Shown here: positions 24,747-45,098 of the stretch, piece by piece
Layout of the letters: each line of letters starts with the position of its first letter
Position numbering within the stretch: position 1 is the first letter of the stretch
Assembly (NCBI GenBank): GCA_045546275.1
Contig: JAZQCM010000042.1
Span: 70,146 to 134,145 of the forward strand
Source of the DNA: Clostridia bacterium
Lineage (GTDB): Bacteria; Bacillota; Clostridia; UMGS1883
DNA length: 64,000 nt
Reading direction: 5' to 3'
Position numbers and translations under genes: made by a program
Notes under the pieces: model-generated
What the model was told of the DNA's origin: nothing
The model's input: the letters and a program-made list of their open reading frames with translations, nothing else
Database searches by the model: none

Positions 24747-27700
24747 GTGCAAAATAGAATTTTCTGTGTTATTCTATCTATATTGTTATTAGTCAGTTAT
24801 GTAAGTAATATGAATACATTAAAAGTATATGCGCAAGATACGCAGAAATCAGATGAAAAAGAAGAAATAGTACAGTTATTTTCTAATTTAGATAGTTCAA
24901 CAATGCAAAATGCAAAGACCTTATCTACATCTACCCAAACCACAACTGTTGTTGATATAAAAACAGGAGGAGAATATAAATGTTTTAAATTTACTCCTTC
25001 GGCTACCGCCACATATGTGTTTGAATCTACAGGTGAGTTTGATACGTATGGATACTTGTATGATTCGAGCGGGGTTCAAATTCAGTCCAATGATGATGGT
25101 GGTGAAAGTAGGAATTTTAAATTGACTTACCAATTGACATCTGGAACAACTTATTATTTCAGAACAAGGTTTTACTCTGCAAGTCAAACTGGAGTTTTTG
25201 ATGTTTATTTGAGGAGAAACTATGTAATCTCTTATGATTCTGGTGGGATTAATTCGACAATGCCGCCAGAACAGCTTGTGCCATATGGAGATTTTACAAA
25301 AATTTGTTCGGAAATTCCCACAACCACAGATACTCAGCTTGGCAGCACATATACGTTTGCAAATTGGAAAACAAATTCCATTACTTATAAGCCAAATGAT
25401 GAATTTTATGTAACGACTAATACAACGTTGTTAGGAAAGTGGACTGGTGGTATAGTTAGCGAAGCGTATAAGTATAATTTAAGATATGATGTGAATGGCG
25501 GAAGTGGTACACCACCAACGGAAGGAACAATGTCACTAATTTTAGGTGGCAACGGAACAAAAAACCTAACATCACATATTCCAATAAGATTTGGCTATAG
25601 ATTTTGTGGATGGGAAGATTCAAGCGGAAATCTATATCTCCCAAATGAAGAAGTTCATATTAATTTTTATACAGACTTGACCGCTAAATGGGAAGAATCT
25701 GAAAGCATATCCGAAAACACGCAAGCTACAAATAACGCAACTATATCTATTGGCAATACAATGAGGTATTATAGCTTTACCCCAAGTACAACTGGAACAT
25801 ATGCTTTTGAGTCAGTTGGGTCTTCGGATACATATGGATACATATACAATTCAACAGGTCAACAGCTTGCATATAATGATGATGGTGGTGAAAGCGCCAA
25901 TTTTAGAGTTACATATAAAATGACAGCAGGAACGAAATATTATTTGGCTGCCAAGTACTACAATTCAAGTAAAACTGGTTCATTTGATGTTAAACTGCGC
26001 AGACAATACACTATTTCATATAATGCTAACGGCGGTTCAGGTGCACCTATGGCTCAAATAAAGTTGTATGGCGACACATTAACTTTGTCATCTGCAGTTC
26101 CTACAAAAGAAGGATATAAGTTTGTGGGATGGGCAACATCTTCCGATGCGACTACTGCTTCGTATGCTTCAGGAGGCGAGTTCTCGTCAAATGGCAACTG
26201 CACTTTATATGCCGTATGGCAAAGCGAAACTTTAGAACCACCAACGATTACAACAAATAATTTAGTAGGTGGAAAACAAATAATAATAAACTGTCCTGGA
26301 ACAACTATTTACTATACCAGGGATGGAAATACTCCAACCACAGATAGCAGTAATGGTCAGGATTCGGTTTATCTATTTGCTTCTTCTACACAGACGATAA
26401 AGGCATTTGCAATGAAAGATGGGTATCAAAGCGATATAGTAACAAAAACTGTAACGGTTAATAAAACGGCATCACCCACCGGAAGCGAAACGTCCGGGAA
26501 ACTGGAATTGTCTTGTAGTGATAGTGGTGCAACGATATATTATACTACAGATGGAACAACACCTACTGTGAGCAGTACGATATACTCATCTGATATAGAT
26601 GTAACTAATATAACTACAGTAAAGGCTATTGCAGTTTTAAGCGGAAACTCAAATAGTAATGTTTATACATGGAATAAAGTATCGTATACCGTAACATATG
26701 ATTATGCAACTAACGGCGGTACATTTGCAACAAAAACAACAGATACTGTTTCTGCCGGAGAAACGGCAGATTTATCTGTGACAGCGACTAAAAATGGTTG
26801 GGAGTTTGTAGGATGGAATACCAACAAATATGCTACAGCTGGATTGCTTTCCTATACAGTAAATAGTAATGCAACATTATATGCTATTTATAAAAAAACA
26901 TATACTGCAAATTTTTATTCTGGCAATAATGAGTTTCAAGAAGCAAAATCCGTAACCATCTACAATACAAGAATACAGGGGACAATTGTTCCGCCTATTC
27001 AAAATGAATATGAAGGATGGAGCCCTAAGGACGTTTGGTGGAGCGAAACTGAAACAGGCAGCGTAACATATCATCAAAGTATAACTATGGGAGAACCTGG
27101 ACACGCTCAAGATGGTGTTAATCTTTATGCTGTGTATTACAGAAATATAGCTGTTTCATACAAAAGCGATGATGTTGAAATAAAAAAAGAAATGATAGAA
27201 CAGATCTATAATTCAAAAACAGGCAAAGAAAAGAAAACTATAACCTTAATTGATGAACCACAAAAAGACGGATTTATCTTTGAAGGTTGGATGTTGGATG
27301 GTGATTTGAATCAAGTTTATGCCGCTGGGGAACAAATAAAGATTGATGATAATTGCACATTGGAGGCTGTTTGGAGGTCTGAATCAATTGTCGCAAACGG
27401 TACTTGTGGCGAAAATGCAACTTGGGAACTTGATAACGAAGGAATTTTAACGATTAGTGGTTTTGGTGATATGTATGACTGGGACTATGAATCTCCCTGG
27501 GAATTGTATTATGATAGCATAACAGCTATTAACATAGAAGACGGCATCACCAGTATCGGTAATAATGCTTTTGATACTTCTTGGACATCGAATGGATATC
27601 AAATAAAAAATGCTGTTATTCCAAATAGTGTAACAAAGATAGGTGAAGATGCCTTTTCAGGATGTAGACTTTTGGAAAGTGTTTCACTATCCAACAATTT

Positions 27701-30700: not shown

Positions 30701-31649
30701 TGTAACATCAGTAAAGCATCAGGGAGATTATTTTAATTGTTGGGCATTTGCTGCAATTGGGTCATTGGAAAGTTGCTATCTTAAAGCTAATTTTGAGTCT
30801 ACCGATGGCGGAGAACTTGATGGTGCTGAAAATGGAATTTCTTTTGTTAATGATTCTCAAAAAATGGCGGTAAGTACAGAGTTACAATTAAATTTGAATT
30901 GTTACCCATATGACTTAAAAAATGATGTGGTTTATCGTAGTAGTAATCCAAGTGTTGCGTCTGTTGATACTGGCGGTAGAGTAACTGCAATAAAAAGCGG
31001 AACTGCGACGATTATAGCAGAGATAGATGGTGCTGGGTTATCAAGTGCTTGTGATATTACAGTTACATCAGGAACATCAGTAGAATCCGTATCGTTATCA
31101 GATGATTCAATAATTGTGCAAAATGGCAAGAGTATAATGCTAGATTATGAGGTGTATCCTGCTGATGCTGTAAATAAAAACGTTACGTGGTGCAGTAGTG
31201 ATGAAAAAGTCTTTACAGTTAATGAACTCGGAACCGTAACTATACTTTCTCCAGGCATAGCAACATTAACGGTAAAAACGGTTGATGGAGGTCATACGGA
31301 TATTTGTGATATTATTGTAAAAGGGAACACCCCTTGTGTACAAAAAGTGATTTCAAATAATATAACTAAATACCGAACTTTTATGCATGGAGACGTCATA
31401 ACACAAATTTGGAATTTGGAAAATGAGAAACAAGCAGTTGCTTTCATAGGTGTTTATGATGAAAATGGCAAGTTGGTTCATTTACAAAAAGATACTGTGG
31501 ATCTAGTAAACGGTAATAATCAAAAAAGTTTCACTTTAGATATCGATGGTATAAATAAAGATAAACCATATGATATAAAGATTTTCTTATGGGAGGGATT
31601 TGATACACTAATGCCTTTATGTAATCAGAATATAATAAATATTGATTAA
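24747..31649 (+). CDS. Giant secreted multidomain protein (2300 aa) with a split/permuted papain-like (C1) peptidase unit
   Basis: GTG start after AAAGGTGA, with a signal peptide ending ...VYA. By-eye domains: 2x PPC-like modules (DTYGY.Y...NDDGGES.NF), several Listeria-Bacteroides/InlB-B-type repeats (Y.ISY.ANGG.G...GY.F.GW), TIYYTTDGT.PT modules, BspA-type LRRs (IPNSVT.IG..AF..C), fn3-like and Big_2-like (ATVDSTGKITA..) domains, a C1 body with His (GGHAITIVGWNDDYD), a lectin-like region, an isolated Cys-helix segment (QGDYFNCWAFAAIGSLES) and a C-terminal beta-rich domain. Confidence 0.85.
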   Translation: MQNRIFCVILSILLLVSYVSNMNTLKVYAQDTQKSDEKEEIVQLFSNLDSSTMQNAKTLSTSTQTTTVVDIKTGGEYKCFKFTPSATATYVFESTGEFDTYGYLYDSSGVQIQSNDDGGESRNFKLTYQLTSGTTYYFRTRFYSASQTGVFDVYLRRNYVISYDSGGINSTMPPEQLVPYGDFTKICSEIPTTTDTQLGSTYTFANWKTNSITYKPNDEFYVTTNTTLLGKWTGGIVSEAYKYNLRYDVNGGSGTPPTEGTMSLILGGNGTKNLTSHIPIRFGYRFCGWEDSSGNLYLPNEEVHINFYTDLTAKWEESESISENTQATNNATISIGNTMRYYSFTPSTTGTYAFESVGSSDTYGYIYNSTGQQLAYNDDGGESANFRVTYKMTAGTKYYLAAKYYNSSKTGSFDVKLRRQYTISYNANGGSGAPMAQIKLYGDTLTLSSAVPTKEGYKFVGWATSSDATTASYASGGEFSSNGNCTLYAVWQSETLEPPTITTNNLVGGKQIIINCPGTTIYYTRDGNTPTTDSSNGQDSVYLFASSTQTIKAFAMKDGYQSDIVTKTVTVNKTASPTGSETSGKLELSCSDSGATIYYTTDGTTPTVSSTIYSSDIDVTNITTVKAIAVLSGNSNSNVYTWNKVSYTVTYDYATNGGTFATKTTDTVSAGETADLSVTATKNGWEFVGWNTNKYATAGLLSYTVNSNATLYAIYKKTYTANFYSGNNEFQEAKSVTIYNTRIQGTIVPPIQNEYEGWSPKDVWWSETETGSVTYHQSITMGEPGHAQDGVNLYAVYYRNIAVSYKSDDVEIKKEMIEQIYNSKTGKEKKTITLIDEPQKDGFIFEGWMLDGDLNQVYAAGEQIKIDDNCTLEAVWRSESIVANGTCGENATWELDNEGILTISGFGDMYDWDYESPWELYYDSITAINIEDGITSIGNNAFDTSWTSNGYQIKNAVIPNSVTKIGEDAFSGCRLLESVSLSNNLISIGEDAFGYCDSLKSITLPDSVESIDSGAFRSCKTLSSICLPINITNISWGMFDSCINLKSVTISGDIDSIEKMVFYGCTNLTDIYYWSTQDKWDKITIDKYGNDRLDSVNIHFSYTLPVISVSDILGGKKVEISCELENATIYYTTDGTPATTESYVYTDAFEIYDIGTTVIQAIAVVDGHSDSETVAEEVTVEIMPSPKTSYTSKSIAYNTGIVLSVNGDFENCIIYYTTDGTLPTSDSEVFDGKITIYDDVTINAVAIADGYATSEMSSFLYVVPKFTITYDANGGIGEPNDQTKRYGETIYISETSPIRTNFLFRGWSLNENGQIIAFKPGDPYQKEESNTLFASWVDISANIPSLSTSSATEITKNSAVLHGAIVDDGNSDVITKRFVYYEKDNPNAEYSVVADENFSATIDNLKSGTEYWYYAEASNIKGYANGNIVKFTTETDTSKISKFTITPSVTRLKKGKTLKLSTTILPSNADNKTIIWESENENIATVDSTGKITAVDYGTTVIKGITEVGRLVSKCNITVSDDVDEIDFSEWNMASNTSSASAVGWAIPLADLSMGGNIQRASGYLTRWSGPILEGTDTYPSDNKGRPLLETTGIKHVQEIIFIPKRKTALDNDTIKQMIMQYGAVHSSYNSSSQYYSDGKKTYYTPIEKPAKSGGHAITIVGWNDDYDKSNFVITPEGNGAFICKNSYGEATGENGYFYISYYDKSLAIKSMSAVYCNPEEVDNYNSVYQYDPLGPLTSISGSSEFSYCANVFPEKGKTTQSNELLTAVSFYTHTQGMKYDIFIIPDYTDSTDFLNMKDPVLSGTMKYAGYHTVDLKEAISIEKGKRFAVVVKLTSIGGDARQYVEKPLSYAKAKANEDESYFSYDGKLWEDLHKKAENTNACIKAFTKNLNTLSLEQNGLTDVIDNANRPYVSDKVYTVEECLASGDILSQEYIDYCSQMELFSDNGDTEATAEIPNSIEVDNDATYLDGSDLPAKYDLRDYGFVTSVKHQGDYFNCWAFAAIGSLESCYLKANFESTDGGELDGAENGISFVNDSQKMAVSTELQLNLNCYPYDLKNDVVYRSSNPSVASVDTGGRVTAIKSGTATIIAEIDGAGLSSACDITVTSGTSVESVSLSDDSIIVQNGKSIMLDYEVYPADAVNKNVTWCSSDEKVFTVNELGTVTILSPGIATLTVKTVDGGHTDICDIIVKGNTPCVQKVISNNITKYRTFMHGDVITQIWNLENEKQAVAFIGVYDENGKLVHLQKDTVDLVNGNNQKSFTLDIDGINKDKPYDIKIFLWEGFDTLMPLCNQNIINID

Positions 31650-31677
31650 TTTAACTTTTAAGAAGGAAGGAGTACTT

Positions 31678-34600
31678 ATGAATTTTAAAAGAGTAATTGC
31701 ATTGTTGTTAGCAGTAATGTTTGTGCTACAGGGAATACCAACTTTTGCTAATGAAACAGAAGGTGAAATGATCGATGAGAGCGTAATTTCTTCTGTTGGA
31801 GAAATTGAAGACCTTGAAGATGAATTAGATGGTTCAGAAAACATTATTACGGATATAGAACCGGAAGGAACGCTATATGTTGATGATATCGAAATTTCTG
31901 ATGATTTAGATGGTGGAGATACAGATTGGCTATTTGAAACAGAGGACGCTGTCAATGAATTAGAAGCTTCAATTATACCCGATGATATTTCTTTTGAAGA
32001 AATAACCGAAGATGAGTTAGATGGTGCTCTGGAAGAAGTTTTCGACACAACGCTTTCGGATGCTACAGGGGAACAAGTTGTTGAAGGTGAAGAAGTTGAA
32101 GAAGTTTCTACCGAAGACGAGGGCTTAGATGGAGGTTCTGCTCCAACGGGCTACAGTATGAGCATAGAAAGCACTAAAGTAAAGGTTGGCAATTCGCTAA
32201 GCATTTCATTTAATATTAGGAATGCTAACTATGCGACATTATACTGTGTTTGTGGAAGTAGCACATATACATATAGAGTTTATTCCGGAACCTATAGATT
32301 AACTTTTGGTTTGCCAGGAACATGGAGATTATATTTAAAAACCTACAATAACTATGGCTCTTTCAATGGGTACTATAATAGCCGTGGTTCACTATATGTA
32401 AATGCCGGATATGCTCCTACAGGGTACAACATGAGTATCAGTAAGACATCTTCTAAAGTAAATCAACCAATATACTTATATATTGATTATAAAAATGCGG
32501 ACTATTATTACCTAGTAATACTTAAAGATGGAAAACAATATTACAATGGTAATCATGGAAAGTCAACAGGAATTACGTTTAGACCAAATCAACCTGGTAC
32601 ATATAAATTCTATTTAAAATCGTATAATTCGTATGGGTCATATGACGGTTCGAGATATTCCGGAAAAACATTGGCCTGTTATGTCACAGGAAATGCTCCT
32701 ACGGCATATTCCCTCAGTGCAAATAGTTCGAGTGTAAATATAGGTTCAAAATTGAATTTTAGTATATCTAATTGGGGTGGTGCTACGTCTGCAAAAATTG
32801 TAATTACAAGAGATAGTACAGTTGTAGCAACAGGATCAATAACAGATGCTTATAATGGATTTTCATTTACACCAGATAAAGCTGGATCGTATAAATGCTA
32901 TATGATTACATATAATTCATACGGCAGTTACAACGGATTATATAATGGTCGAGTCGTTTATTTTAAAGCGAATGGTGCTCCTGCTGCATACGACATAAGA
33001 ATAAATAAAAGTTCAATAAAGGCTGGTGAAAAAGTCACTTTAATAATTGACCCTAAAAATGCTTCATATTATTACCTAGTAATATTAAAGAATGGTACAC
33101 AATGTTATAAACAATACCATGGTTTAGCACGAGGAATTGATGTAACTTTAAATGCTACCGGAACATATAAATTCTATTTGATAACGTACAATAGTAGCGG
33201 AAGTTATAATGGACAGAACAGCAGGTACGTAACATGTTCAGTATCTGCAGCGAACACACTATTTACAATAGGAAAGGACAATTATAGATTTACTAATAGT
33301 GGAAGTGTTTTGGGATACTCTGACAATGAAAAAATCTCATTATCTGCTTATCAGTCAGTATTTGGTTCATGGAGTGGGTACTTAAAATGGCTTTCAGCAG
33401 ATTCGTGGGGTGGGTCGTGTTTTGGATTTGCTTCATCTTCTGCTTTGATGCACAAAGGAAATATAAGTTATAAAAAATACAATTCATCAGCTAATTGTAC
33501 ATACGACTTATCAAATACAAGCAGTGTAATAAATTTATTGGAACGTTATCAGTTATCACAAGATTTAACAAAGGTTTCTAATGAAGAATATAGATACACA
33601 AACAAGTATGCATCAATAATAAATGCTGTACAATCATATCAGAATGGGTCAAAAGATCCTGTCATTATAGGTATATATCGAAATGGCGGTGGTCATGCAG
33701 TGGTTGGTAGGTATGTAACAAAAGACTCTTCCGGTAATTATAGAATATACGTATCTGATAATAATAAGCCAACAAACAATAATCTGTACATTACAATCTA
33801 TAAAAATTTGAATGGTTTTTATTATAATAATGGTTCAAGGGTTTATTCTAAGGATATATCAATGAATTATGCATCTACTATATTTAATGCGATGCCAAGC
33901 GCTGCAAAGTATTCGTTAGACGGAACAGAAAACAGTACAAATGAAGAAGTAGAACAGATTACAATTGCTTTAGATGCTGATGAATTTGATATTGTTAATA
34001 GTAGTGGTACACCGTTTGAAGAAATTGAAAATGCTTATGAAAAGAAATCATATGATGATATTACATTATCTAAAAGAATTTTTGTTCTGCCCAAAGATGA
34101 ATACACTATTACATTTAAAAATTATGAAGAAAAAGAAACAAATTGTTTGATAGACGACGGCAATGAATTTTTAGGTGTACGTTCGGTAACCAAAGAAGGT
34201 GCTTTGTATGTGGGAACAGAAGCAACAGTTGGTAAAATACGTTGTATTATGAGTCTTCCTGTTGAATCAACCATTGTAACCGAATATTTGAATGCTTCTG
34301 AACAATTGCAACAGTTTGAAATTAATGGAAAATATCTCAATTTAGGTGTTTCATCAAATGGCGATGTTATCGTAAATACAGATGTTAATACTATAAAACA
34401 AAATGGTGTTAATGTAGACTTATCATCATTTGAAGAAGATGACGAAGGCGGTTTGGATGGTGCAAGCGGAAGTTTTTCAGGAACAACACTTTCAAACAAT
34501 TTGGATGGATTAGATGGATTTGATGGTTCAGCTTCAACAAGTTTATCTATGATTTTAAGAGATAATACTATCTCAAGAGAAAACGGAACGATTAAAGGCA

Positions 34601-34851
34601 AGTTAGGTATTGCTATAAAAAATGACCTCGGATATATGATTGAAGGTAAAGCATATATTGCTGCTTATGACTCTTCAGGCAAATTACTAACTGTTAACAC
34701 AGATGAATTTGTTGCTGGTAAGGATGTAAGCTATTTTACATTGGATATACCAGATACAGAAATACTTACAACCGATACAATAACAATAAAAGTATTCTTA
34801 TGGGATGAAGATATGTCACCTATGTCAAATGCACTTGTGACATCTATATAA
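31678..34851 (+). CDS. Secreted repeat protein (1057 aa) with putative papain-fold Cys/His domain
   Basis: RBS GAAGGAAGGAG, then ATG at 31678 and the signal peptide MNFKRVIALLLAVMFVLQGIPTFA. Acidic linker, four ~92-aa tandem repeats (32140-33255), then WGGSCFGFASSS (Cys codon 33418-33420) and GGGHAVVG (His codon 33694-33696). Its C-terminal domain is similar to that of the 2300-aa protein. Confidence 0.8.
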   Translation: MNFKRVIALLLAVMFVLQGIPTFANETEGEMIDESVISSVGEIEDLEDELDGSENIITDIEPEGTLYVDDIEISDDLDGGDTDWLFETEDAVNELEASIIPDDISFEEITEDELDGALEEVFDTTLSDATGEQVVEGEEVEEVSTEDEGLDGGSAPTGYSMSIESTKVKVGNSLSISFNIRNANYATLYCVCGSSTYTYRVYSGTYRLTFGLPGTWRLYLKTYNNYGSFNGYYNSRGSLYVNAGYAPTGYNMSISKTSSKVNQPIYLYIDYKNADYYYLVILKDGKQYYNGNHGKSTGITFRPNQPGTYKFYLKSYNSYGSYDGSRYSGKTLACYVTGNAPTAYSLSANSSSVNIGSKLNFSISNWGGATSAKIVITRDSTVVATGSITDAYNGFSFTPDKAGSYKCYMITYNSYGSYNGLYNGRVVYFKANGAPAAYDIRINKSSIKAGEKVTLIIDPKNASYYYLVILKNGTQCYKQYHGLARGIDVTLNATGTYKFYLITYNSSGSYNGQNSRYVTCSVSAANTLFTIGKDNYRFTNSGSVLGYSDNEKISLSAYQSVFGSWSGYLKWLSADSWGGSCFGFASSSALMHKGNISYKKYNSSANCTYDLSNTSSVINLLERYQLSQDLTKVSNEEYRYTNKYASIINAVQSYQNGSKDPVIIGIYRNGGGHAVVGRYVTKDSSGNYRIYVSDNNKPTNNNLYITIYKNLNGFYYNNGSRVYSKDISMNYASTIFNAMPSAAKYSLDGTENSTNEEVEQITIALDADEFDIVNSSGTPFEEIENAYEKKSYDDITLSKRIFVLPKDEYTITFKNYEEKETNCLIDDGNEFLGVRSVTKEGALYVGTEATVGKIRCIMSLPVESTIVTEYLNASEQLQQFEINGKYLNLGVSSNGDVIVNTDVNTIKQNGVNVDLSSFEEDDEGGLDGASGSFSGTTLSNNLDGLDGFDGSASTSLSMILRDNTISRENGTIKGKLGIAIKNDLGYMIEGKAYIAAYDSSGKLLTVNTDEFVAGKDVSYFTLDIPDTEILTTDTITIKVFLWDEDMSPMSNALVTSI

Positions 34852-38128: not shown

Positions 38129-39055
38129 ATGAATTACGAAAATATTAGTAGGAGTGGAGGGGCTAGTTTGGATATTAAATATTCCGATGAGACAAGGTGT
38201 TGTTTGTTGGATGATAAAAAAAGAAGAGAGGTAGAAAAAAGATTAGTGAATACAGTAAAAGGATTTATGGAGAAATACAATATAAAATCCTTGAATGCTA
38301 TTGAAATATATAAATTTGATGAGAAAAAACAAGAGCTAGGAGCTATAAAAAAAGAATTTGTAAACAAATTGCCGTCAACAGTGTTATTTATTTCTGATTT
38401 AAGTTTACAACAAATTAGTCAACCACACAATGTGAAATATGGCATTCATACTGTTCATCACGAGCTATGTCATGTGAAAGATTTCGAAACAATATGTAAT
38501 AATATGAATGGTATTTTAGTGACAGATTCATATGAGCATCCATATTCCATGGAAAGTTTATGCTTTATATGGGGATATGAATTGTTTGGAGAATATTTGG
38601 CATATAGAAATTCATATTCATCATATGCAGAACAAAAACAACAGCATAATTTTATATTGTATCATGAAATGTTTGATGACATTATCCAAGATATTACGCT
38701 TATATGTAATAGTAAACAACGTAGGCAAAATACATATACTAATGAGAATTTATTAAATATTACAAAAAGAATTGTAATGTTCATATGTAAAAATTTAGGG
38801 TACTATCATGCTTCAAACAATAAAGTCTTTATGAAAAATATGGCGCAGATTGCTGATGTCAAATTTATTGAATATATAAATCAATTGGATGAACAACTTA
38901 AAAAATGGTTTCAAGGATATCCAAACTGGATTAGTTATAACTCATATGTTGAAATAGGCTGTTTGGTGTTATCTGTTTTTTCTATCTATGGAGTAGATTT
39001 AGCGGTAACAAATAACGAAACATGTTTCCATATGGAAAAAGAAGTTGAACCGTAA
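38129..39055 (+). CDS. Hypothetical protein with HExxH zinc-metallopeptidase motif
   Basis: 308 aa. HTVHHELCHVKD (HELCH codons 38459-38473), with a downstream acidic/aromatic segment WGYELFGEYLAY as a possible third ligand region. No signal peptide. Confidence 0.55.
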   Translation: MNYENISRSGGASLDIKYSDETRCCLLDDKKRREVEKRLVNTVKGFMEKYNIKSLNAIEIYKFDEKKQELGAIKKEFVNKLPSTVLFISDLSLQQISQPHNVKYGIHTVHHELCHVKDFETICNNMNGILVTDSYEHPYSMESLCFIWGYELFGEYLAYRNSYSSYAEQKQQHNFILYHEMFDDIIQDITLICNSKQRRQNTYTNENLLNITKRIVMFICKNLGYYHASNNKVFMKNMAQIADVKFIEYINQLDEQLKKWFQGYPNWISYNSYVEIGCLVLSVFSIYGVDLAVTNNETCFHMEKEVEP

Positions 39056-39109
39056 TAGCTGTTATAAGAAGCGAATGAATATATAGAATAAACGAACGGA
39101 GGAAAAATA

Positions 39110-40933
39110 TTGGAACTTTATGATTTGCTGAAAGAAACCATGAAAGTTGAAAGGCGAGCATTTTTATCAAATCCTTTTTCCGATAAACTAAAAGAAACTC
39201 TCGACGCTGATGATGAAAAGTTAACGTATGAATTGCTAAAAAATATATGCAATATAGCTATGGTCGTATCTGATGATGGGGTGACATTTCAACCTTCAAT
39301 TATCATGCGTAATAAAAGGTCTTATTCACTAGAGGACATGACAGAGGAAGATTATCGACGACTGGAATCACTGGAAATTTATAAGTTGCCTGTACATATT
39401 AGGGCGCGTGTTGCTGATATTCTGTGGACACAAAAAAGAATTTATAAATACGCTAATATTGCTGCTGAAGCTTATATTGAGTTGTTTAATCTGCTATTTT
39501 CTGAAGATGATTGGCTTGAATCATTAGATGTGATTAAACGTGCGATTTGCATTTATGTTCAAACAAACAATAAAGAACGCGATAACTGTTATCAACTCAT
39601 ATATAACCATTTGGTTAGAATCGATGGGAAAGACGAGTATTTTCTATCTCTAAAATTAATTGAGATATTGCTTTTTCAGTCTTTCGATAATCTGGATGTA
39701 ATTATAGGAATACTTGATAAAATCATATCACGCAATCAGGATAATCCCAATAAAATTGAACATGCATATGAACTAAAGTTCAAGTGCATAAACAAACGAG
39801 AAGGACTGGAAAAAGCACGACAGGTAAATATAGATTTGGCAGATTACTTTGTTTCATTTGCTGAAAGGCTATTTGTTTCCCAAGAGCAAGGGGCATTAAG
39901 ATCGGAGATATATTTAAAGAAGGCAATATATTTATATCGTAACAACGGGCAACCAAGCAAAGGGGAAGTAACACATAGGCGATTAATAGAGGTTCAAAAA
40001 GAGAAAATTAAATATATGCACGCATATGAGCAGATGATAGATGTAAGTAAAGTAATTCAAAATGTTAAAAATAATATGGAAGGATTGTCTTTTGAAGAGA
40101 GCATTATAAGGATTATGCAACTCACTAAGTTCTATACAAAAGATGAAGTGAAAAAACGAGTGCTTGAAGAGAAAAATTCATTCTTTTTAGCACGCTATTT
40201 CCCCAAGAGCATTGTGAACGAAGAAGGACAAACAATTTTGGAGCTGCCACCATTAGATTTGGAAAACCCTTCGGAAAATACGGAACTGCTTGACTTACAC
40301 ATACATAATAAAATGCTCGAGTTACAAACTTATGGCGGTGATTGGTATCTTGCATTTGTGTTGTCTTATATACAAAGTAATTTTGATATATATAACGAAA
40401 GTTTAGAGTTTATAATAAAAGATAATATTATTATACCTGAAGGTAGGAAGCGCGTAATAACGTTTGGTATTCGTTTAGCATTACAAGGAGAATATTATGA
40501 GGCGTTACACATTTTAGCTCCACAAATAGAAAATATATTTAAGAATATTGCAAAAGCGGCAGGGGCTGTAACTGTTACTTTAGAGAAGGACGGTACTTCA
40601 AAAGATAAATTGCTAAGTTCTATTTTTGATTTGCATGAACTTATAGACTGCTATGATAACGATATTTTATTTTTGTTTAAAGGGTTACTAAATGAACAAG
40701 CCGGGGCAAATATAAGAAACAATATTGCTCATGGAATTATGAGCGAATCTAATGGTAGTCATGGGTCAAGTTTGTATTTTATATGCGCTGTGATAAAACT
40801 TTTTGCGATATCTTCCCCGCGGTGTTGGGAAATACTAAATGATATGAGAGAAATGAAACCATGTACACCAATTGAGGAAGGTGCATTAAAAATAGTTAAA
40901 GACAGTGAAAACTGTAATATAGAAGAAACATGA
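39110..40933 (+). CDS. Large helical protein with C-terminal HEPN-like Rx4H motif (DUF4209-like, tentative)
   Basis: TTG start 7 nt after RBS ACGGAGG; 607 aa. C-terminal LLNEQAGANIRNNIAHG (Arg codon 40715-40717, His codon 40730-40732) fits the HEPN Rx4-6H signature in its RN..AHG flavour. Confidence 0.55.
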   Translation: MELYDLLKETMKVERRAFLSNPFSDKLKETLDADDEKLTYELLKNICNIAMVVSDDGVTFQPSIIMRNKRSYSLEDMTEEDYRRLESLEIYKLPVHIRARVADILWTQKRIYKYANIAAEAYIELFNLLFSEDDWLESLDVIKRAICIYVQTNNKERDNCYQLIYNHLVRIDGKDEYFLSLKLIEILLFQSFDNLDVIIGILDKIISRNQDNPNKIEHAYELKFKCINKREGLEKARQVNIDLADYFVSFAERLFVSQEQGALRSEIYLKKAIYLYRNNGQPSKGEVTHRRLIEVQKEKIKYMHAYEQMIDVSKVIQNVKNNMEGLSFEESIIRIMQLTKFYTKDEVKKRVLEEKNSFFLARYFPKSIVNEEGQTILELPPLDLENPSENTELLDLHIHNKMLELQTYGGDWYLAFVLSYIQSNFDIYNESLEFIIKDNIIIPEGRKRVITFGIRLALQGEYYEALHILAPQIENIFKNIAKAAGAVTVTLEKDGTSKDKLLSSIFDLHELIDCYDNDILFLFKGLLNEQAGANIRNNIAHGIMSESNGSHGSSLYFICAVIKLFAISSPRCWEILNDMREMKPCTPIEEGALKIVKDSENCNIEET

Positions 40934-40983
40934 TCGTTAGAGAATAAATATATGCATTTAAAAATAACGGAGGGTGGTGCAGG

Positions 40984-42525
40984 ATGATGGAATCGACTGA
41001 TAAACTAATTGATAAGTTGGATAGATATGACTTTGTGCAGTTTGTTAAAGATTTAATTATTAATTCTGAGCAATATCGAAGGAATACCGGTGCAAAATCT
41101 TATGTTGCGGCATTAGATTCTGCGTGGGGGACAGGCAAGAGTTACTTTATAGATTTGCTCATGCAAGATATTGAAGAACAAAATAATATACGTGTGATAA
41201 AATACAATGCATGGGAAAACGATTATTGCGATAATGCTTTCAATCCTTTGATTTACGATATCTTAAAATCAGAATGTTTAAGTTTCAGTACGGAAACTGA
41301 TGCTGACATAGAGAATATTGGAAAAATGGTGAAAAGCATATTGAAAATAGGAGCCGCTTTCACAAAACAGCTTACTGTAGATGCAATAAAAGAAAAAATG
41401 GGAGTAGATGTTGAGAAAGCGCTGCAGGAAGCACTAAGTGCAGGCAAAACAGTAAAAGATTTTATGCTTAGGGAAATACCAAATATTGAAATATTGAATG
41501 AGCAGCGCGAAGCGTTTGAGGAATTTAAAAATTACTTAAGCAATGCAACAACATGGCTGAAAGAATCCGACATAAAACTTGTTGTTATAATTGATGAATT
41601 GGATAGATGTAAGCCTACATTTGCTATACAAACTTTAGAAGTGGTTAAGCACTTATTTGATATCGAAAATATTGTGTTTCTATTTGCTGTTGATATAGAA
41701 CAGCTTAGTCATAGTGTGTCAAGTGTTTATGGACAAGGTTTTGACTCTGTGGGGTATTTATGCAGGTTTTTTGACTATATTGCGAAAATGCCGATTCCAA
41801 ACATTAATGTTTATGTACAGGATCAAATAAATAGCATGGGATTAATTGGAGATATAGATGTTCCAGATGTTTCGGAAGCCTATAAAACACGGAAACTGGC
41901 AGAATTGGTTTCAGAGTTTATTGTTGAAACATACAGAAGTTTTGATTTCTCGCTAAGAGATTTAGATACACTCCTGCAAAGCTATAAAATAATGCTAAAT
42001 AACTTTTTAGGAGATTATAAAATGCTTGGTGCGCATATGATATACATATTTTATTTGGCATTGAAATATAAGAAGCCAGATATGTTCTATAAGACTTTTT
42101 TAGACACGGCATCATACAAATCATTTATACAGTCAGATCTTGCCCCTTTCATAAGAAGAAAATATCAATCAAATAAATGGCTACAAGCAACCAGCGATGT
42201 TATGTATGTAGATAAACCGTTATGTGATGTGGACTTGTTGCCGTACTTCGATGGAAGAGGGAACAACGATGGTTCAATTACAAAATACATTCGATTAGAG
42301 ACTTATGAGAATGGAAAAATTGTTGCATTAGTTAAAGTGAATGTAAGTGGAAGAATGATTAATGAAAGGCTGGAGTTGGAAAATAGATCGAATAACAGTA
42401 TGGGTAATATCCTTTTTGACCAAGATATTTTAAAATGGGAAGATATTAAAAAAATGACATACAGGGAATATCTTCATAAGCAATTAGAAAATTATAATTT
42501 TGTGTCAACAAAAGAGCAAGCGTAA
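40984..42525 (+). CDS. KAP-family P-loop NTPase (second copy in window)
   Basis: Walker A LDSAWGTGKS (41116-41142), YNAWENDY, and Walker B VVIIDELDRC (DELDRC at 41593-41610) followed by KPTFAIQTLEVVKHLF. Same motif set as 17637-18971, but otherwise divergent. Confidence 0.8.
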   Translation: MMESTDKLIDKLDRYDFVQFVKDLIINSEQYRRNTGAKSYVAALDSAWGTGKSYFIDLLMQDIEEQNNIRVIKYNAWENDYCDNAFNPLIYDILKSECLSFSTETDADIENIGKMVKSILKIGAAFTKQLTVDAIKEKMGVDVEKALQEALSAGKTVKDFMLREIPNIEILNEQREAFEEFKNYLSNATTWLKESDIKLVVIIDELDRCKPTFAIQTLEVVKHLFDIENIVFLFAVDIEQLSHSVSSVYGQGFDSVGYLCRFFDYIAKMPIPNINVYVQDQINSMGLIGDIDVPDVSEAYKTRKLAELVSEFIVETYRSFDFSLRDLDTLLQSYKIMLNNFLGDYKMLGAHMIYIFYLALKYKKPDMFYKTFLDTASYKSFIQSDLAPFIRRKYQSNKWLQATSDVMYVDKPLCDVDLLPYFDGRGNNDGSITKYIRLETYENGKIVALVKVNVSGRMINERLELENRSNNSMGNILFDQDILKWEDIKKMTYREYLHKQLENYNFVSTKEQA

Positions 42526-42693: not shown

Positions 42694-43224
42694 ATGGATA
42701 TTAAAAAAGTAGGATATCAGATAGCTGAATTAAGAAAGAATAAAGGGTTAACACAAAGTGATTTGGGCGACCGACTGGGCGTGAGCTTTCAGGCGGTAAG
42801 TAAGTGGGAACGTGGCGAAACGCTTCCGGATACGGCAATACTTGTTCCGCTTGCTGAGGTTTTAGAAACAACGGTTGATTTCATCCTGACAGGTGGTGAA
42901 AAGGCGTTAAATTATCGTGGGAAAATTAAAGTTGGCGATATGTTTGAGGGCATAAAGCACTTAGGCAAAATTGGGGAATGCTTAGGTCGCGACAATATTA
43001 TTTATCGCTATGCAATAAAGGGCATAAATGACGGAATGAATACTGACATTGAAGCGTGTTTTACTGATGACTATGTGATGGAATGCTTTGTGGCAGAAGC
43101 CATTATTCAAAATCTTAAAATGGGCGCATATGTAGACTTAACAGACGTGAAGAAAAGCTTTAAACATGAGCATTTTAGAAATATTGTTATTGATTGGTGT
43201 GCAAAGTACGGCATAACAGCATAA
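42694..43224 (+). CDS. XRE-family HTH transcriptional regulator with C-terminal domain
   Basis: The N-terminus IAELRKNKGLTQSDLGDRLGVSFQAVSKWERGETLPD is a canonical HTH_3 motif. 176 aa. Confidence 0.8.
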   Translation: MDIKKVGYQIAELRKNKGLTQSDLGDRLGVSFQAVSKWERGETLPDTAILVPLAEVLETTVDFILTGGEKALNYRGKIKVGDMFEGIKHLGKIGECLGRDNIIYRYAIKGINDGMNTDIEACFTDDYVMECFVAEAIIQNLKMGAYVDLTDVKKSFKHEHFRNIVIDWCAKYGITA

Positions 43225-43399: not shown

Positions 43400-43503
43400 G
43401 ATAACAAACTTTATTTAACCACCAATAAAGTTGTTTGCGATACAGGTTTTGAGTCGTTCCAACAAAACAACTTTGCCTTGACTTGATAGCCAGCAGTTAC
43501 ACG

Positions 43504-43653
43504 TCGCCTCCACCATTCATTTTCACGGAAAATGTGAAATTATTAGAATACACCTTATAGCTAGATTCCTTGCCATAAGGTGTATTTTTTAGTTTAAGCC
43601 AGTATCGGCAAAAGATGGGTATTTTATTAGGTTTTGTAAAATTGCCGGGGTAG
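43504..43653 (+). repeat. ssrA 3'-end repeat copy 5 (type-B-like; presumed ancestral downstream flank)
   Basis: TCGCCTCCACCATTCATTTTCACGGAAAATGTGAAATTATTAGAATACACCTTATAGCTAGATTCCTTGCCATAAGGTGTATTTTTT... shares the hairpin terminator and part of the following sequence with copies 2 and 4. Confidence 0.8.
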
Positions 43654-43713
43654 CATAAGGAGAAGGGATACTGTGTATAGACAATAATACAACAGAACAG
43701 TCCTCTGTGTTGA

Positions 43714-43748
43714 TTATAAGGTTATAAAGCTAACCGCTGTTAAAAATG
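43714..43748. repeat. Conserved ~35-nt module, copy 1 (TTATAAGGTTATAAAGCTAACCGCTGTTAAAAATG)
   Basis: Lies immediately after (3' of, on the minus strand) the H1 terminator. Near-identical to 44521-44555, and its core is shared with 44128-44154. Confidence 0.8.
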
Positions 43749-43749
43749 T

Positions 43750-43822
43750 AATAAAAAAGTACCTGCAGCAAGTGCAAGGGTTCAAGAGAATCTCTAGCCC
43801 AGTCACAAATACTGCAGATACC
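43750..43822 (-). ncRNA. Tandem hairpin-RNA mini-gene H1 (predicted)
   Basis: Minus strand: -35 TTGACA (43857-43852), 17 nt, -10 TATAGT (43834-43829). The 5' arm GGUAUCUGCAG (43822-43812) pairs with CUGCAGGUAC (43768-43759), followed by U6 (43758-43753). The interior has a GGG...hairpin...UUGAACCC core. Confidence 0.5.
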
Positions 43823-43857
43823 AAAATGACTATATCGAATTTATTGGATATTGTCAA

Positions 43858-43950
43858 TAAAAAGAAGAAGCAAGTCATCGAGAAGCAACCATCACCTATA
43901 CAGATGCCCTGCCAACACGTCCGAAACGTCCCGTCCACTAAATCTTCTTC
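43858..43950 (-). ncRNA. Tandem hairpin-RNA mini-gene H2 (predicted)
   Basis: -35 TTGACA (43985-43980), 17 nt, -10 TAAATT (43962-43957). GAAGAAG (43950-43944) pairs with CUUCUUC (43870-43864), followed by U5. That U-tract abuts the H1 -35. Confidence 0.45.
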
Positions 43951-43986
43951 GGTAACAATTTATCACAAGAGGATGTGTTTGTCAAC

Positions 43987-44057
43987 AAAATAAAAGTTCC
44001 CAACAGAGTATGCCAATTAATATTGACTCCCCGGCTCCGAAAGGAGATGTTGAGAAC
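43987..44057 (-). ncRNA. Tandem hairpin-RNA mini-gene H3 (predicted)
   Basis: -35 TTGACA (44093-44088), 17 nt, -10 TATCTT (44070-44065). GUUCUCAACA (44057-44048) pairs with UGUUGGGAAC (44005-43996), followed by UUUUAUUUU, which abuts the H2 -35. Confidence 0.45.
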
Positions 44058-44127
44058 GATTGTTAAGATACCATAATAATTAAAATCTGTCAAGACAAAT
44101 TTGGATAGCTTGGTCTTGACAAATAAA

Positions 44128-44154
44128 ATTATAATGCTAACCGCTGTTAAAAAT
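44128..44154. repeat. Conserved module, copy 2 (ATTATAATGCTAACCGCTGTTAAAAAT)
   Basis: Follows the H4 terminator. The shared core is GCTAACCGCTGTTAAAAAT. Confidence 0.7.
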
Positions 44155-44300
44155 AAAAAGAAGCTCTGAAACTCCTCGAGTGGACTCAAAGGTCCGAAAG
44201 CTAAAAGCTTTGGGAGAAACAGAACTTCAAAGCAAAGGCTACTCTCTCCCGGGTGACCATTGTGTCCAATGGTGAGAGCCGGGCCATCACCTCTGCTTCT
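44151..44300 (-). ncRNA. Tandem hairpin-RNA mini-gene H4 (longer, ~150 nt; predicted)
   Basis: -35 TTGACA (44335-44330), 17 nt, -10 TATATT (44312-44307). AGAAGC (44300-44295) pairs with GCUUCU (44164-44159), followed by UUUUAUUU. The closing stem is only 6 bp, so this is the weakest member. Confidence 0.35.
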
Positions 44301-44335
44301 AAGGATAATATATCATTTGGAGTGGGAGATGTCAA

Positions 44336-44403
44336 TAAAAAATCAGCAGTTGAATGCTAAAGGTTCAGGTCGAAACCATAGCCTCGTCATATCAACTACT
44401 GAC
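44336..44403 (-). ncRNA. Tandem hairpin-RNA mini-gene H5 (predicted)
   Basis: -35 TTGACA (44438-44433), 17 nt, -10 TATAGT (44415-44410). UCAGUAGUUGA (44402-44392) pairs with UCAACUGCUGA (44353-44343), followed by U6, which abuts the H4 -35. The interior has AGG...GGU-UUCG-ACC...UGAACCU. Confidence 0.5.
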
Positions 44404-44520
44404 AGGATGACTATATCAGATTTAATGGATATTGTCAAGACATATCCGCATGGCACGATGCGTCGGAGGACAGGCATCTTATACAGACCATGCAGGACAG
44501 GCTGACAGCTAACTGTCAGA

Positions 44521-44555
44521 TTATAAGGTTATAAAACTAACCGCTGTTAAAAATG
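44521..44555. repeat. Conserved module, copy 3 (TTATAAGGTTATAAAACTAACCGCTGTTAAAAATG)
   Basis: Follows the H6 terminator. One substitution relative to copy 1. Confidence 0.8.
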
Positions 44556-44558
44556 TAA

Positions 44559-44637
44559 TAAAAAAGAAGATGCTCAACGATGCTGACAGGTTCGGGAGAA
44601 GATTCTCGCACCCCTGTATGCCTCGAAGAGTATCTCT
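44559..44637 (-). ncRNA. Tandem hairpin-RNA mini-gene H6 (predicted)
   Basis: -35 TTGACA (44672-44667), 17 nt, -10 TATTGT (44649-44644). AGAGAUACUC (44637-44628) pairs with GAGCAUCUUC (44575-44566) with one mismatch, followed by U6. The interior has CAGG...hairpin...CCGAACCUG. Confidence 0.45.
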
Positions 44638-44992
44638 ATAAGTACAATATCAAATTTATAGGATATTGTCAACTAAATAAAATACACTTAACCTTTAAGG
44701 GGTTAATTCTCAATTTGAAAATAATGCTGCGAAAGCGGCTTTAAATATAGGGCAAACGGTACTTATGCCGAAGAAGGTTAAACTCTCAAGTCGCCAGGAT
44801 AGGCTTTGAAAAAATTAGTGTTTCGTTTTAGTTTTTCAGGCTTTTCAGGGGCGGGGGGAGGTCAAATCTCTACAACTAATTTTTTATACAACGGGCGTGG
44901 GGTATCGTGTGCAAAAATCGGAAATCAAACGGGTGGCCCGAAAAGCTTATGGAAGCATATATTAAGGATTTTGGCGAAAACCAGTAATAAAA

Positions 44993-45025
44993 ACACCTTG
45001 CAGTAATATGCAAGGTGTTTTTTTG
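44993..45025. terminator. Bidirectional hairpin terminator at the accessory/core boundary
   Basis: AAAAACACCTTGCA-GTAATA-TGCAAGGTGTTTTTTT, with an A-run before and a T7 after. Confidence 0.7.
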
Positions 45026-45098
45026 CTTGGGAAAAGTCTTGTGGTTTTTATTAAATTGGTATATAATGGACTTATCCTATTGTAAAGGAATGTGGAGT

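What the first reader, a model, noticed from the sequence alone, without database searches (positions are those of the whole stretch)
43750..44672. Array of six minus-strand mini-genes: consensus promoter, one long closing hairpin, U-tract
Seen: six times on the minus strand there is an exact TTGACA, a 17-nt spacer and a TATAGT, TAAATT, TATCTT, TATATT, TATAGT or TATTGT -10. In five of the six units, the base ~7 nt downstream of the -10 is the first base of a 7-11-bp stem. The partner arm of that stem lies 50-70 nt away and is followed at once by a U5-6 tract. The sixth unit, H4, is ~150 nt long with only a 6-bp closing stem. The closing stems differ completely in sequence between units but keep their pairing, with G-U wobbles. 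H1, H5 and H6 also share an internal design: a covarying 3-4-bp stem (GGG/CCC, AGG/CCU, CAGG/CCUG) enclosing a small hairpin and an unpaired (U/C)GAA before the 3' CC. Terminator U-tracts run straight into the next -35 (UUUUUAUUGACA), giving head-to-tail groups H3-H2-H1, H5-H4 and H6. No ORF is conserved; the shared 'MTISxLxDIV' peptide is just the conserved promoter read on the opposite strand, and the third copy carries a stop there. Inference: a family of short, highly structured, independently transcribed RNAs sits at the distal end of the ssrA island array. I cannot match them to any RNA family I know. Possible roles include sRNA regulators, RNA antitoxins or decoys, and protein-sequestering RNAs.
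Basis: partly seen in the sequence, partly recalled or inferred. Interest (0 to 1): 0.7.

Follow-up and report, generated by a model that had tools for sequence, protein, structure and literature searches.

The report
Orphan cluster of six hairpin-RNA mini-genes
A 0.9-kb stretch next to the tmRNA defence-island hotspot of an uncultured gut Clostridia bacterium carries six back-to-back mini-genes, each a near-perfect promoter, one tightly folded ~65-145-nt RNA and a terminator; they match no known RNA family and were found in no other genome, so they look like real but functionally unexplained small-RNA genes.

Summary
Six exact TTGACA-N17-TAnnnT promoters lie on the minus strand within 43829-44672 (9 in the window against 1.26 expected). 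In all six units the predicted +1 is the first base of a long stem, and the 3' arm of the last stem abuts a U-tract. Five of six fold better than shuffles (z -3.8 to -5.3); H2 does not.

Corrections:
- H4 is two consecutive hairpins.
- H1 and H5 are clear homologues (65.7% over 108 nt; CM 30.8 bits; 10 of 25 pairs changed on both sides).
- H6 shares only the promoter, the design and GAACC.

New points:
- The H1, H5 and H6 promoters sit inside a 30-bp palindrome, probably an operator.
- A 55-nt repeat with an invariant 18-mer follows H1, H4 and H6.
- Outside the U tails no unpaired run exceeds 5 nt.

Rfam, phage, plasmid, viral, JGI-metagenome and related-genome searches found no relative. The closest syntenic genome lacks the 1.5-kb segment.

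Best reading: accessory, co-regulated, very stable non-coding hairpin RNAs that more likely bind a protein than base-pair with mRNAs. Transcription and function remain untested.

The parts
43829..43857 (-). H1 promoter: TTGACA-N17-TATAGT, inside the palindrome TGACAATATC-N10-GATATAGTCA (43827-43856)
43753..43822 (-). H1 RNA, about 70 nt. It has a 13-bp closing stem, an inner 5-bp and a GGG/CCC helix, a small hairpin, an unpaired GAA and a U6 tail.
   Evidence: z -5.27; model R1 was built from it
43957..43985 (-). H2 promoter: TTGACA-N17-TAAATT, with TG extended -10
43859..43950 (-). H2 RNA, about 92 nt. GAAGAAG/CUUCUUC closing stem, weakly structured interior, U5 tail.
44065..44093 (-). H3 promoter: TTGACA-N17-TATCTT. 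Its -35 lies in a 15-nt inverted repeat (44085-44099 / 44110-44124).
43987..44057 (-). H3 RNA, about 70 nt. 10-bp closing stem around a three-way junction, U4AU4 tail.
   Evidence: z -3.76
44307..44335 (-). H4 promoter: TTGACA-N17-TATATT
44155..44299 (-). H4 RNA, about 145 nt. Two consecutive long hairpins; the second is followed by U5.
   Evidence: z -4.18
44410..44438 (-). H5 promoter: TTGACA-N17-TATAGT, inside the palindrome at 44408-44437
44337..44403 (-). H5 RNA, about 67 nt. Homologue of H1: 12-bp closing stem, GAGG/CCUU helix, UUCG hairpin, UGAA, U6 tail.
   Evidence: (30.8 bits, E 1.7e-6)
44644..44672 (-). H6 promoter: TTGACA-N17-TATTGT, inside the degenerate palindrome at 44642-44671
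44560..44636 (-). H6 RNA, about 77 nt. Interrupted closing stem, CAGG/CCUG helix, small hairpin, CCGAA, U6 tail.
   Evidence: z -4.16
43712..43766 (.). D1 repeat, copy 1, directly after the H1 terminator. Invariant 18-mer CTAACCGCTGTTAAAAAT at 43730-43747.
44119..44173 (.). D1 repeat, copy 2, after H4. The flanks are degenerate; the 18-mer at 44137-44154 is intact.
44519..44573 (.). D1 repeat, copy 3, after H6. 93% identical to copy 1; 18-mer at 44537-44554.
44439..44518 (-). 80-nt spacer between D1 copy 3 and the H5 promoter. It holds a perfect hairpin CTGACAG-TTAG-CTGTCAG and two copies of GCCTGTCCT. Status unknown.
43504..43700 (+). Context: the last copy of the ssrA 3' end (core TCGCCTCCACCA...), a terminator and the conserved island 'left end'. 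The array starts where this ends.

Best explanation
The array is a lineage-specific (accessory) cluster of six independent genes for short non-coding RNAs.

How each unit works: a near-consensus sigma-A promoter fires. The transcript starts at the first base of a long helix and ends at a U-tract, so the terminator hairpin is most of the RNA. Both ends are buried or capped by structure, so the RNAs should be unusually stable and abundant.

Regulation: the H1, H5 and H6 promoters lie inside a shared 30-bp palindrome and are probably switched together by one dimeric repressor.

Likely mode of action: the RNAs expose almost no single-stranded sequence, and H1, H5 and H6 keep a small internal-loop and hairpin module with GAACC. 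They therefore most likely bind or sequester a protein (decoy, antitoxin-like or regulator-titrating RNA) rather than pair with mRNAs. The setting, at the end of an ssrA defence-island hotspot, suggests a role in conflicts with mobile elements.

Shown here: the sequence anatomy, the paralogy, pairing kept through substitutions, and absence from relatives. Inferred: transcription, stability, repression, protein binding and any defence role.
For: - Promoters: six exact TTGACA-N17-TAnnnT in 0.85 kb, against 1.26 expected per 64 kb; five have a TG extension.
- Register: the predicted +1 is the first paired base in all six units, and the last stem is followed by U5-6 only on the minus strand.
- Folding: z -3.8 to -5.3 for five of six units.
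- Paralogy: H1 and H5 are 65.7% identical over 108 nt including the promoter. A single-sequence CM of H1 finds H5 at 30.8 bits, E 1.7e-6.
- Pairing kept: on that alignment 95.7% of cells pair and 10 of 25 pairs changed on both sides, against 33-48% paired and 0-2 such pairs when partners are slid.
- Operator: the 30-bp palindrome occurs only at these three promoters; 6 strand-hits against 0.02 expected.
- Not coding: no conserved ORF or Shine-Dalgarno start.
- No seed: no unpaired run longer than 5 nt apart from the U tails, and no complementarity above chance to the window, tmRNA or the neighbouring G-rich element.
- Accessory status: the closest syntenic genome, L005, has only about 80 bp where the window has 43520-45030.
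- Context: the neighbouring islands carry PDC-S20, PDC-S39, an AbiN-like gene and DpnII R-M.
Against: - There are no expression data.
- No homologue was found anywhere, so selection is inferred from paralogues only. The H1/H5 alignment was fitted to the structure and has n = 2.
- H2's interior is poorly structured.
- H6, H2, H3 and H4 are not alignable to H1 as RNAs.
- No candidate protein partner or repressor was identified. The adjacent XRE gene has no such palindrome at its own promoter or at its homologues' promoters.
- Closing stems that enclose 25-60 structured nt are atypical intrinsic terminators.
- The D1 repeat is not explained by this model.
Confidence: 0.4

Rival explanations
1. 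The units are ordinary trans-acting base-pairing 'sibling' sRNAs, like the LhrC1-5, Qrr or csRNA clusters. They would be co-regulated by one transcription factor and repress or activate mRNAs elsewhere in the genome.
For: - The layout is tandem sRNA genes, each with its own promoter and intrinsic terminator.
- H1, H5 and H6 share a promoter-operator.
- Short motifs are shared: TTCTC in 5 of 6 units and GAACC in H1, H5 and H6.
- Only 64 kb of the genome could be screened for targets.
Against: - No unpaired stretch exceeds 5 nt outside the U tail, and the 5' end is fully paired.
- The shared motifs are marginal (p about 0.02-0.04) and partly paired.
- No complementarity above chance was found in the window.
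Confidence: 0.2
2. The units are orphan antisense or decoy RNAs aimed at incoming mobile elements. Each hairpin would copy the countertranscript, or a protein-binding RNA site, of a particular phage or plasmid, so the array would act as an RNA-based exclusion battery. RNA anti-CRISPRs would be a special case.
For: - The architecture (strong constitutive promoter, one long imperfect hairpin running from +1 to the terminator) is that of RNA-OUT- or CopA-type countertranscripts (own knowledge).
- The bodies differ while the expression modules are shared.
- The array sits at a defence hotspot.
Against: - blastn at 65-70% sensitivity found no match to 50,697 phage and 72,556 plasmid records.
- Apical loops are only 3-4 nt, which is poor for kissing interactions.
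- There is no sense gene on the opposite strand.
- No CRISPR array or cas genes were noticed in the window (not searched for specifically), so repeat mimicry could not be tested.
Confidence: 0.12
3. The units work at the level of transcription or DNA and have no RNA function. They would be promoter-terminator modules acting as insulators or RNA-polymerase traps at the island border, or decaying remains of regulatory regions of lost island genes.
For: - The RNA is little more than a terminator hairpin.
- H2's interior is unstructured.
- The segment is accessory and absent from relatives.
- Modules are shuffled between units.
Against: - Plus-strand terminators already flank the segment at 43545-43590 and 44989-45025.
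- The exact -35, the spacing and the +1/stem register are kept in all six units.
- H1 and H5 keep 12-13 contiguous pairs while the arms diverged.
- Decay would not preserve these features.
Confidence: 0.13
4. The units are DNA repeats of a mobile element (MITE or IS ends, integron attC-like cassettes, recombination sites), with the stems being terminal inverted repeats.
For: - Hairpin-forming units about 70-150 bp long.
- The D1 repeat recurs at 400- and 407-bp spacing, with TAAC/GTTA half-sites.
Against: - The stem sequences differ between units, whereas MITE terminal repeats are shared.
- No target-site duplications were noted on reading the sequence (not searched for systematically).
- U-tracts occur on one strand only, in register with the promoters.
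- No copies exist elsewhere in the window or in 1.38 Mb of related loci.
- The order GTT...AAC is the reverse of attC R''/R' (read).
Confidence: 0.05

Closest known systems
Sibling sRNA gene clusters (e.g. Listeria LhrC1-5, Vibrio Qrr1-5, streptococcal csRNAs; review PMC4211561, surfaced)
   Same: Several related small-RNA genes lie in tandem, each with its own promoter and Rho-independent terminator. A shared promoter motif implies common control.
   Different: Known siblings keep a conserved single-stranded seed (UCCC or anti-SD type). Here the RNAs are paired from +1 to the terminator, with no unpaired run above 5 nt. Only H1 and H5 are alignable, and there is no conservation outside one genome.
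Countertranscripts of plasmids and transposons (IS10 RNA-OUT, R1 CopA, ColE1 RNA I) - own knowledge
   Same: A strong constitutive promoter drives a 60-110-nt RNA that is essentially one long imperfect hairpin and is very stable.
   Different: Those RNAs overlap a sense gene on the other strand and use 5-7-nt apical loops or a free 5' tail for pairing. Here there is no sense gene, the loops are 3-4 nt and the 5' end is paired.
Type III toxin-antitoxin RNA arrays (ToxI/ToxN, CptIN, TenpIN; AvcI/AvcD, PMC10511110, surfaced)
   Same: An array of structured non-coding RNA units in a phage-defence context, acting by binding a protein.
   Different: Type III antitoxins are near-identical tandem repeats under one promoter. 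They are cut out by the toxin, whose gene follows on the same strand. Here there are six different units with six promoters and terminators, and no downstream ORF.
RNA anti-CRISPRs / solitary repeat units of mobile elements (own knowledge)
   Same: Small promoter-driven hairpin RNAs carried by accessory DNA that act as decoys for RNA-binding proteins.
   Different: Racrs are defined by similarity to the CRISPR repeats of the host. No CRISPR locus was available to compare, and the H RNAs are 2-4 times longer than a repeat.

Membership tests
Any Rfam 15 family (including 6S, Y RNA, SRP, ribozymes, riboswitches, known Firmicute sRNAs) | Covariance-model score at or above the family's gathering threshold | tested here: not met
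   Across the window only tmRNA at 16396-16738 passes. A permissive scan of 43400-45050 gave nothing in the array above 20 bits against gathering scores of 60 or more.
tRNA / tmRNA-like genes | Cloverleaf or tRNA-like domain detectable by ARAGORN | tested here: not met
   ARAGORN finds only the tmRNA gene in the window.
Sibling base-pairing sRNA cluster | Two or more homologous sRNA genes, each with its own promoter and intrinsic terminator | tested here: met
   H1 and H5 are 65.7% identical over 108 nt; the CM gives 30.8 bits, E 1.7e-6. All six units have a promoter and a U-tract.
Sibling base-pairing sRNA cluster | A conserved, accessible single-stranded seed of about 6 nt or more | tested here: not met
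   The longest run with unpaired probability above 0.7, outside the U tails, is 3-5 nt. Shared k-mers are marginal.
Sibling base-pairing sRNA cluster | Identified mRNA targets or chaperone dependence | not testable with these tools
   Only 64 kb of the genome is available, and nothing in it rises above chance.
Type III TA antitoxin array (ToxI-like) | Near-identical short tandem repeats under a single promoter | tested here: not met
   The units differ in sequence and length (67-145 nt) and each has its own promoter.
Type III TA antitoxin array (ToxI-like) | A toxin gene immediately downstream on the same strand | tested here: not met
   Downstream of H1 on the minus strand (43700 down to 43225) there is no ORF of 60 aa or more.
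cis-antisense countertranscript (RNA-OUT / CopA type) | Overlaps the 5' region of a sense gene on the opposite strand | tested here: not met
   The plus strand of 43750-44672 holds only short ORFs that are not conserved between units, and one reading frame is interrupted by a stop.
MITE / IS terminal repeats | Shared terminal inverted repeats and dispersed copies | tested here: not met
   The stem sequences differ between units. There are no further copies in the window or in 1.38 Mb of related loci. The rest of the genome was not available.
Retron ncRNA | An adjacent reverse-transcriptase gene | tested here: not met
   No ORF follows the array, and the Pfam annotation of the neighbours shows no reverse transcriptase.
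RNA anti-CRISPR (Racr) | Sequence and structure mimicry of a CRISPR repeat of the host | not testable with these tools
   No CRISPR array or cas gene was noticed in the window (no dedicated search was run), and no genome of this species is on record.

The most novel reading that the evidence does not exclude
The array would be a repressor-gated battery of ultra-stable hairpin RNAs, triphosphorylated and base-paired at the 5' end, forming a new kind of RNA-only cargo of a defence hotspot. Once derepressed (for example on infection), the RNAs would flood the cell and titrate a phage or host RNA-binding protein, serving as decoy or antitoxin for a protein encoded elsewhere. A more speculative variant is that they are released to the animal host, where 5'-ppp blunt hairpins are classical RIG-I ligands.
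Probability: 0.1. Interest if true: 0.85.

Novelty: new variant of a known kind. Interest (0 to 1): 0.55.

Why it matters
If transcribed, these would be the first described RNA-only module at a tmRNA-linked defence hotspot in gut Clostridia. Their design is unusual: a consensus promoter, pairing from the first nucleotide, and a terminator that makes up most of the RNA. That design points to stability and protein binding rather than to the usual seed pairing.

The shared palindromic operator gives a direct experimental handle, since the repressor can be sought by DNA pull-down. The H1/H5 pair gives a starting covariance model for mining larger data sets.

If the units turn out not to be transcribed, or to be functionless, the case is still a useful caution. 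Strikingly gene-like promoter-hairpin-terminator units can then arise and shuffle in accessory DNA.

Tried and rejected
1. Known RNA families were rejected by the Rfam gathering and permissive scans and by ARAGORN.
2. Homologues by DNA:
   - Phage and plasmid blastn found none.
   - IMG/VR scans with the D1 18-mer, the strict and the relaxed palindromic promoter, the G-rich piece and the att core gave only chance hits or ordinary promoters.
   - The JGI metagenome scan with the strict promoter pattern gave two chance hits.
3. Homologues by synteny:
   - 80 GTDB loci around the ABC-transporter binding protein had no array, no D1 and no palindrome.
   - ATPase relatives at 85% and 84% identity sit on contigs too short to tell.
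   - SmpB relatives at 90-94% identity carry the same att and island-end modules but different cargo.
   - Close XRE homologues are chromosomal genes elsewhere, with no palindrome.
4. The spurious-ORF trick, a 74-aa ORF across H1 searched against 1.84 billion proteins, found nothing relevant.
5. Exact look-ups of the window's own proteins found them not on record.
6. Target search was at chance level: exact complements of 11 nt or more in the window, and duplex energies against tmRNA and the G-rich element. One search timed out.
7. A MAFFT plus RNAalifold run on H1, H5 and H6 gave no consensus because the alignment was not structure-aware. It was replaced by a CM-based alignment.
8. Ideas dropped on reading the sequence:
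   - K-turn, sarcin-ricin or T-loop identity of the CUA/UGAA loop: the 5' side is not conserved.
   - D1 as a sigma-70 promoter: the spacer would be 19-20 nt.
   - D1 as a dif, attC or ops site: only partial resemblance.
   - VIPR vrRNAs: these need GGY/NN repeats and a Vipr protein.
   - A decayed att copy at 44913: about 50% identity, not tested statistically.
Full report
OBSERVATION

The minus strand of 43750-44672 carries six exact TTGACA-N17-TAnnnT sites, at 43829-43857, 43957-43985, 44065-44093, 44307-44335, 44410-44438 and 44644-44672. The whole 64-kb window has nine, against 1.26 +/- 1.12 in dinucleotide shuffles. The six are the top-scoring minus-strand promoter-like sites in 40-48 kb, and five have a TG extended -10.

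I folded each unit from the base after the -10 to the first U-run. In every unit the outer stem opens at the 7th or 8th nucleotide after the -10, always a G, which is where sigma-70 transcription should start. The 3' arm of the last stem abuts U5-6, or U4AU4 in H3. Folding energies beat shuffles for H1, H3, H4, H5 and H6, with z of -5.3, -3.8, -4.2, -4.1 and -4.2. H2 was clipped in that call. Refolded whole it closes with GAAGAAG/CUUCUUC, but its interior is weak and no shuffle test was run on it. U-tracts run straight into the next -35. The plus-strand 'MTISxLxDIV' reading is the promoter in reverse, and the third copy carries TAG.

- H4 is two successive hairpins, not one closed structure.
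- The stems are not unrelated in sequence (see Relationships between units).
- H6 resembles H1 and H5 in promoter and design, not in alignable RNA sequence.

RELATIONSHIPS BETWEEN UNITS

A self-comparison of 43590-45030 shows the following.
- H5 and H1 align end to end, promoter to terminator, at 65.7% over 108 nt (E 3.5e-8).
- H6 shares only the 29-34-nt promoter with them, at 85-86%.
- H2, H4 and H6 share the terminator arm GCWTCTTC-T5 and a GAAG/GAGA start.

A covariance model built from H1 alone (R1) gives these scores:
- H5: 30.8 bits, E 1.7e-6 in the window.
- H6: 7.7 bits.
- H3: 9.3 bits.
- Everything else at 12-19 bits is a generic terminator.

On the model-fitted H1/H5 alignment, 95.7% of cells pair and 10 of 25 pairs changed on both sides. 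Sliding the partners gives 33-48% paired and 0-2 such pairs. That alignment is fitted to the structure and has only two sequences, so this is suggestive and not proof.

Short shared words are marginal:
- TTCTC in five of six units (p about 0.016).
- TTTCGGA in H2, H3 and H4 (p about 0.04).
- GAACC in H1, H5 and H6.

The picture is a locally evolving set of units built from shuffled modules: promoter type, RNA body, terminator arm.

NEW FEATURES

First, the promoters of H1, H5 and H6 sit inside a 30-bp palindrome, TGACAATATC-N10-GATAT(A/T)GTCA. It occurs nowhere else in the window, with 6 strand-hits against 0.02 expected. This looks like the operator of a dimeric repressor overlapping -35 and -10 (inference).

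Second, a 55-nt repeat, D1, follows the terminators of H1, H4 and H6. Its copies are spaced 407 and 400 bp apart and carry an invariant 18-mer, CTAACCGCTGTTAAAAAT. It contains TAAC/GTTA half-sites but is not a convincing sigma-70 promoter, because the spacer would be 19-20 nt. Its role is unexplained.

Third, apart from the 3' U tails, no unit has a run of more than 5 nt with unpaired probability above 0.7, and the first nucleotides are paired.

CONTEXT

The window holds smpB and ssrA (16396-16738). The ssrA 3' end (core TCGCCTCCACCA plus about 40 nt) recurs at 22988, 35249, 37740 and 43504. These copies delimit four low-GC (about 33%) segments.

Pfam found no integrase in any ORF scanned. The segments do carry defence candidates: two PDC-S20 KAP NTPases, PDC-S39 (DUF4209), an AbiN-like protein and a DpnII R-M system.

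Copies 2, 4 and 5 share about 200 nt of 'left end' downstream of the core. The array begins at 43712, exactly where that shared sequence stops.

In the closest syntenic genome (L005, binding protein 80% identical), an att copy and one terminator are followed within about 80 bp by the promoter of the ABC-transporter operon. The window's 43520-45030 is therefore extra DNA.

Three SmpB-defined relatives (90-94% identity) carry the same att, right-end and left-end modules but other cargo and no array.

The species itself is represented by a single 143.7-kb contig in the 5.8-billion-protein collection, and exact look-ups fail.

SEARCH FOR RELATIVES

None was found by any of these routes:
- Rfam.
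- Phage and plasmid blastn.
- Five IMG/VR pattern scans.
- One JGI metagenome scan.
- Motif and CM scans of 1.38 Mb of related loci.
- An ORF-based search of 1.84 billion proteins.

The only neighbouring sequence found elsewhere is a G-rich non-coding piece to the right of the array (44806-44936). It is 92% identical in contig L088, whose ATPase protein is 84% identical to the window's and which aligns to the window at 78% DNA identity over 1,665 nt. That contig ends there, so whether a second species has the array is unknown.

WHAT IT MOST LIKELY IS

The evidence argues for selected transcription units, not chance or decay:
- six consensus promoters;
- a fixed +1/stem register;
- U-tracts on one strand only;
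- pairing kept while both arms diverged.

No ORF or ribosome-binding site fits, so the products are non-coding RNAs.

The architecture, with a paired 5' triphosphate end, a 3' terminator and almost no single-stranded sequence, predicts very stable RNAs. It is a poor fit to seed-pairing sRNAs, and no complementarity above chance exists to the 64-kb window, tmRNA or the G-rich element. A protein-binding role (decoy, antitoxin-like, titrating) is therefore my preferred mechanism. The conserved internal-loop and hairpin module with GAACC in H1, H5 and H6 is the candidate binding site, and the palindrome gives common repression. These last steps are inference, and I put the whole statement at about 0.4. 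That the units are real RNA genes I put at about 0.75.

RIVALS

- Ordinary sibling sRNAs (0.2).
- Orphan countertranscripts or decoys aimed at mobile elements, including RNA anti-CRISPRs (0.12).
- Promoter-terminator modules with no RNA function, or decaying remnants (0.13).
- DNA-level repeats (0.05).

COMPARISON WITH KNOWN SYSTEMS

The array shares tandem, individually expressed genes with sibling-sRNA clusters, but fails the accessible-seed criterion. It shares the single stable hairpin design of RNA-OUT/CopA-type countertranscripts, but has no sense gene. It shares the defence setting and the presumed protein binding of type III antitoxin arrays, but lacks identical repeats, a single promoter and a toxin gene. 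It belongs to none of them.

VERDICT

This is a real and unusual sequence feature, correctly described and plausibly a set of novel small-RNA genes. It is confined, as far as can be searched, to one uncultured gut Clostridia genome and has no functional evidence. I rate it a new variant of a known kind (island-borne small-RNA gene cluster), with interest 0.55.

Noticed in passing
window 16727, 22988, 35249, 37740, 43504 (att copies); L090 9412, 10955; L005 6889-6980; L092 10865, 13882: The ssrA 3' end (TCGCCTCCACCA plus about 40 invariant nt) is repeated five times. It bounds four low-GC segments in which Pfam found no integrase. These segments share conserved ends: a 'right end' of about 90 nt with an inverted repeat, and a 'left end' of about 200 nt. 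The same modules recur at 83-95% identity in related MAGs with different cargo. This looks like a family of integrase-less, cassette-like islands at tmRNA.
   Followed up: partly
window 43712-43766, 44119-44173, 44519-44573: The D1 repeat has an invariant 18-mer, CTAACCGCTGTTAAAAAT, and TAAC/GTTA half-sites. Copies are spaced 407 and 400 bp apart and always lie right after a terminator. It is neither a good promoter nor a known site, and it is unexplained.
   Followed up: partly
window 44806-44936 (+), followed by the terminator at 44989-45025; L088 7-132: A G-rich non-coding piece (GGGGCGGGGGGAGG...CAAACGGG) is 92% identical in another species, whereas the whole 1,665-nt alignment that includes the adjacent ATPase gene is 78% identical. 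No ORF is conserved because of a frameshift. In both genomes a plus-strand terminator follows it, just upstream of the ABC-operon promoter. It may be a conserved sRNA or a regulatory element.
   Followed up: partly
window 42694-43224 (+); L099 and L100 6001-6531: The XRE-family gene at the end of the last island is 94-97% identical to a gene that sits in ordinary chromosomal contexts in two MAGs, next to an AraC-type regulator gene in both and upstream of the spoIIIA operon in L099. The promoter region is similar too, so the island seems to have captured a chromosomal regulator.
   Followed up: partly
window 17037-22611 and 38129-42525: Defence content of the islands: an AbiN-like protein, two PDC-S20 KAP NTPases, a DpnII endonuclease with two methyltransferases, and PDC-S39 (DUF7380 + DUF4209).
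   Followed up: partly
window 23342-34851: Island 2 encodes an S8 subtilase, a 2300-aa multi-domain surface protein (LRR, Big_2, papain-like C1 peptidase, lectin-like, Flg_new repeats) and a 1069-aa protein with no Pfam match. This is unusual cargo for a tmRNA island.
   Followed up: no
window 44439-44518 (-): The spacer between D1 copy 3 and the H5 promoter holds a perfect 7-bp hairpin, CTGACAG-TTAG-CTGTCAG, and two copies of GCCTGTCCT, one reading CCUCC. It may be a further small transcript or a binding site.
   Followed up: no
SmpB homologue table: Most metagenomic contigs that carry close SmpB homologues are only about 0.6-1.3 kb long. Assemblies appear to break at ssrA in this clade, which fits repeated att copies, and this limits any comparative work on the hotspot.
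   Followed up: no
L095 3235-3263 (-) and about 95 nt downstream (IMG/VR UViG_3300037840_000486): A phage contig has a promoter of the same TTGACAATATC-N10-GATATAGT form. It is followed by a short RNA-like unit that ends in a strong 14-bp terminator hairpin and U7. The body is unrelated to the H RNAs and this is probably coincidence.
   Followed up: no
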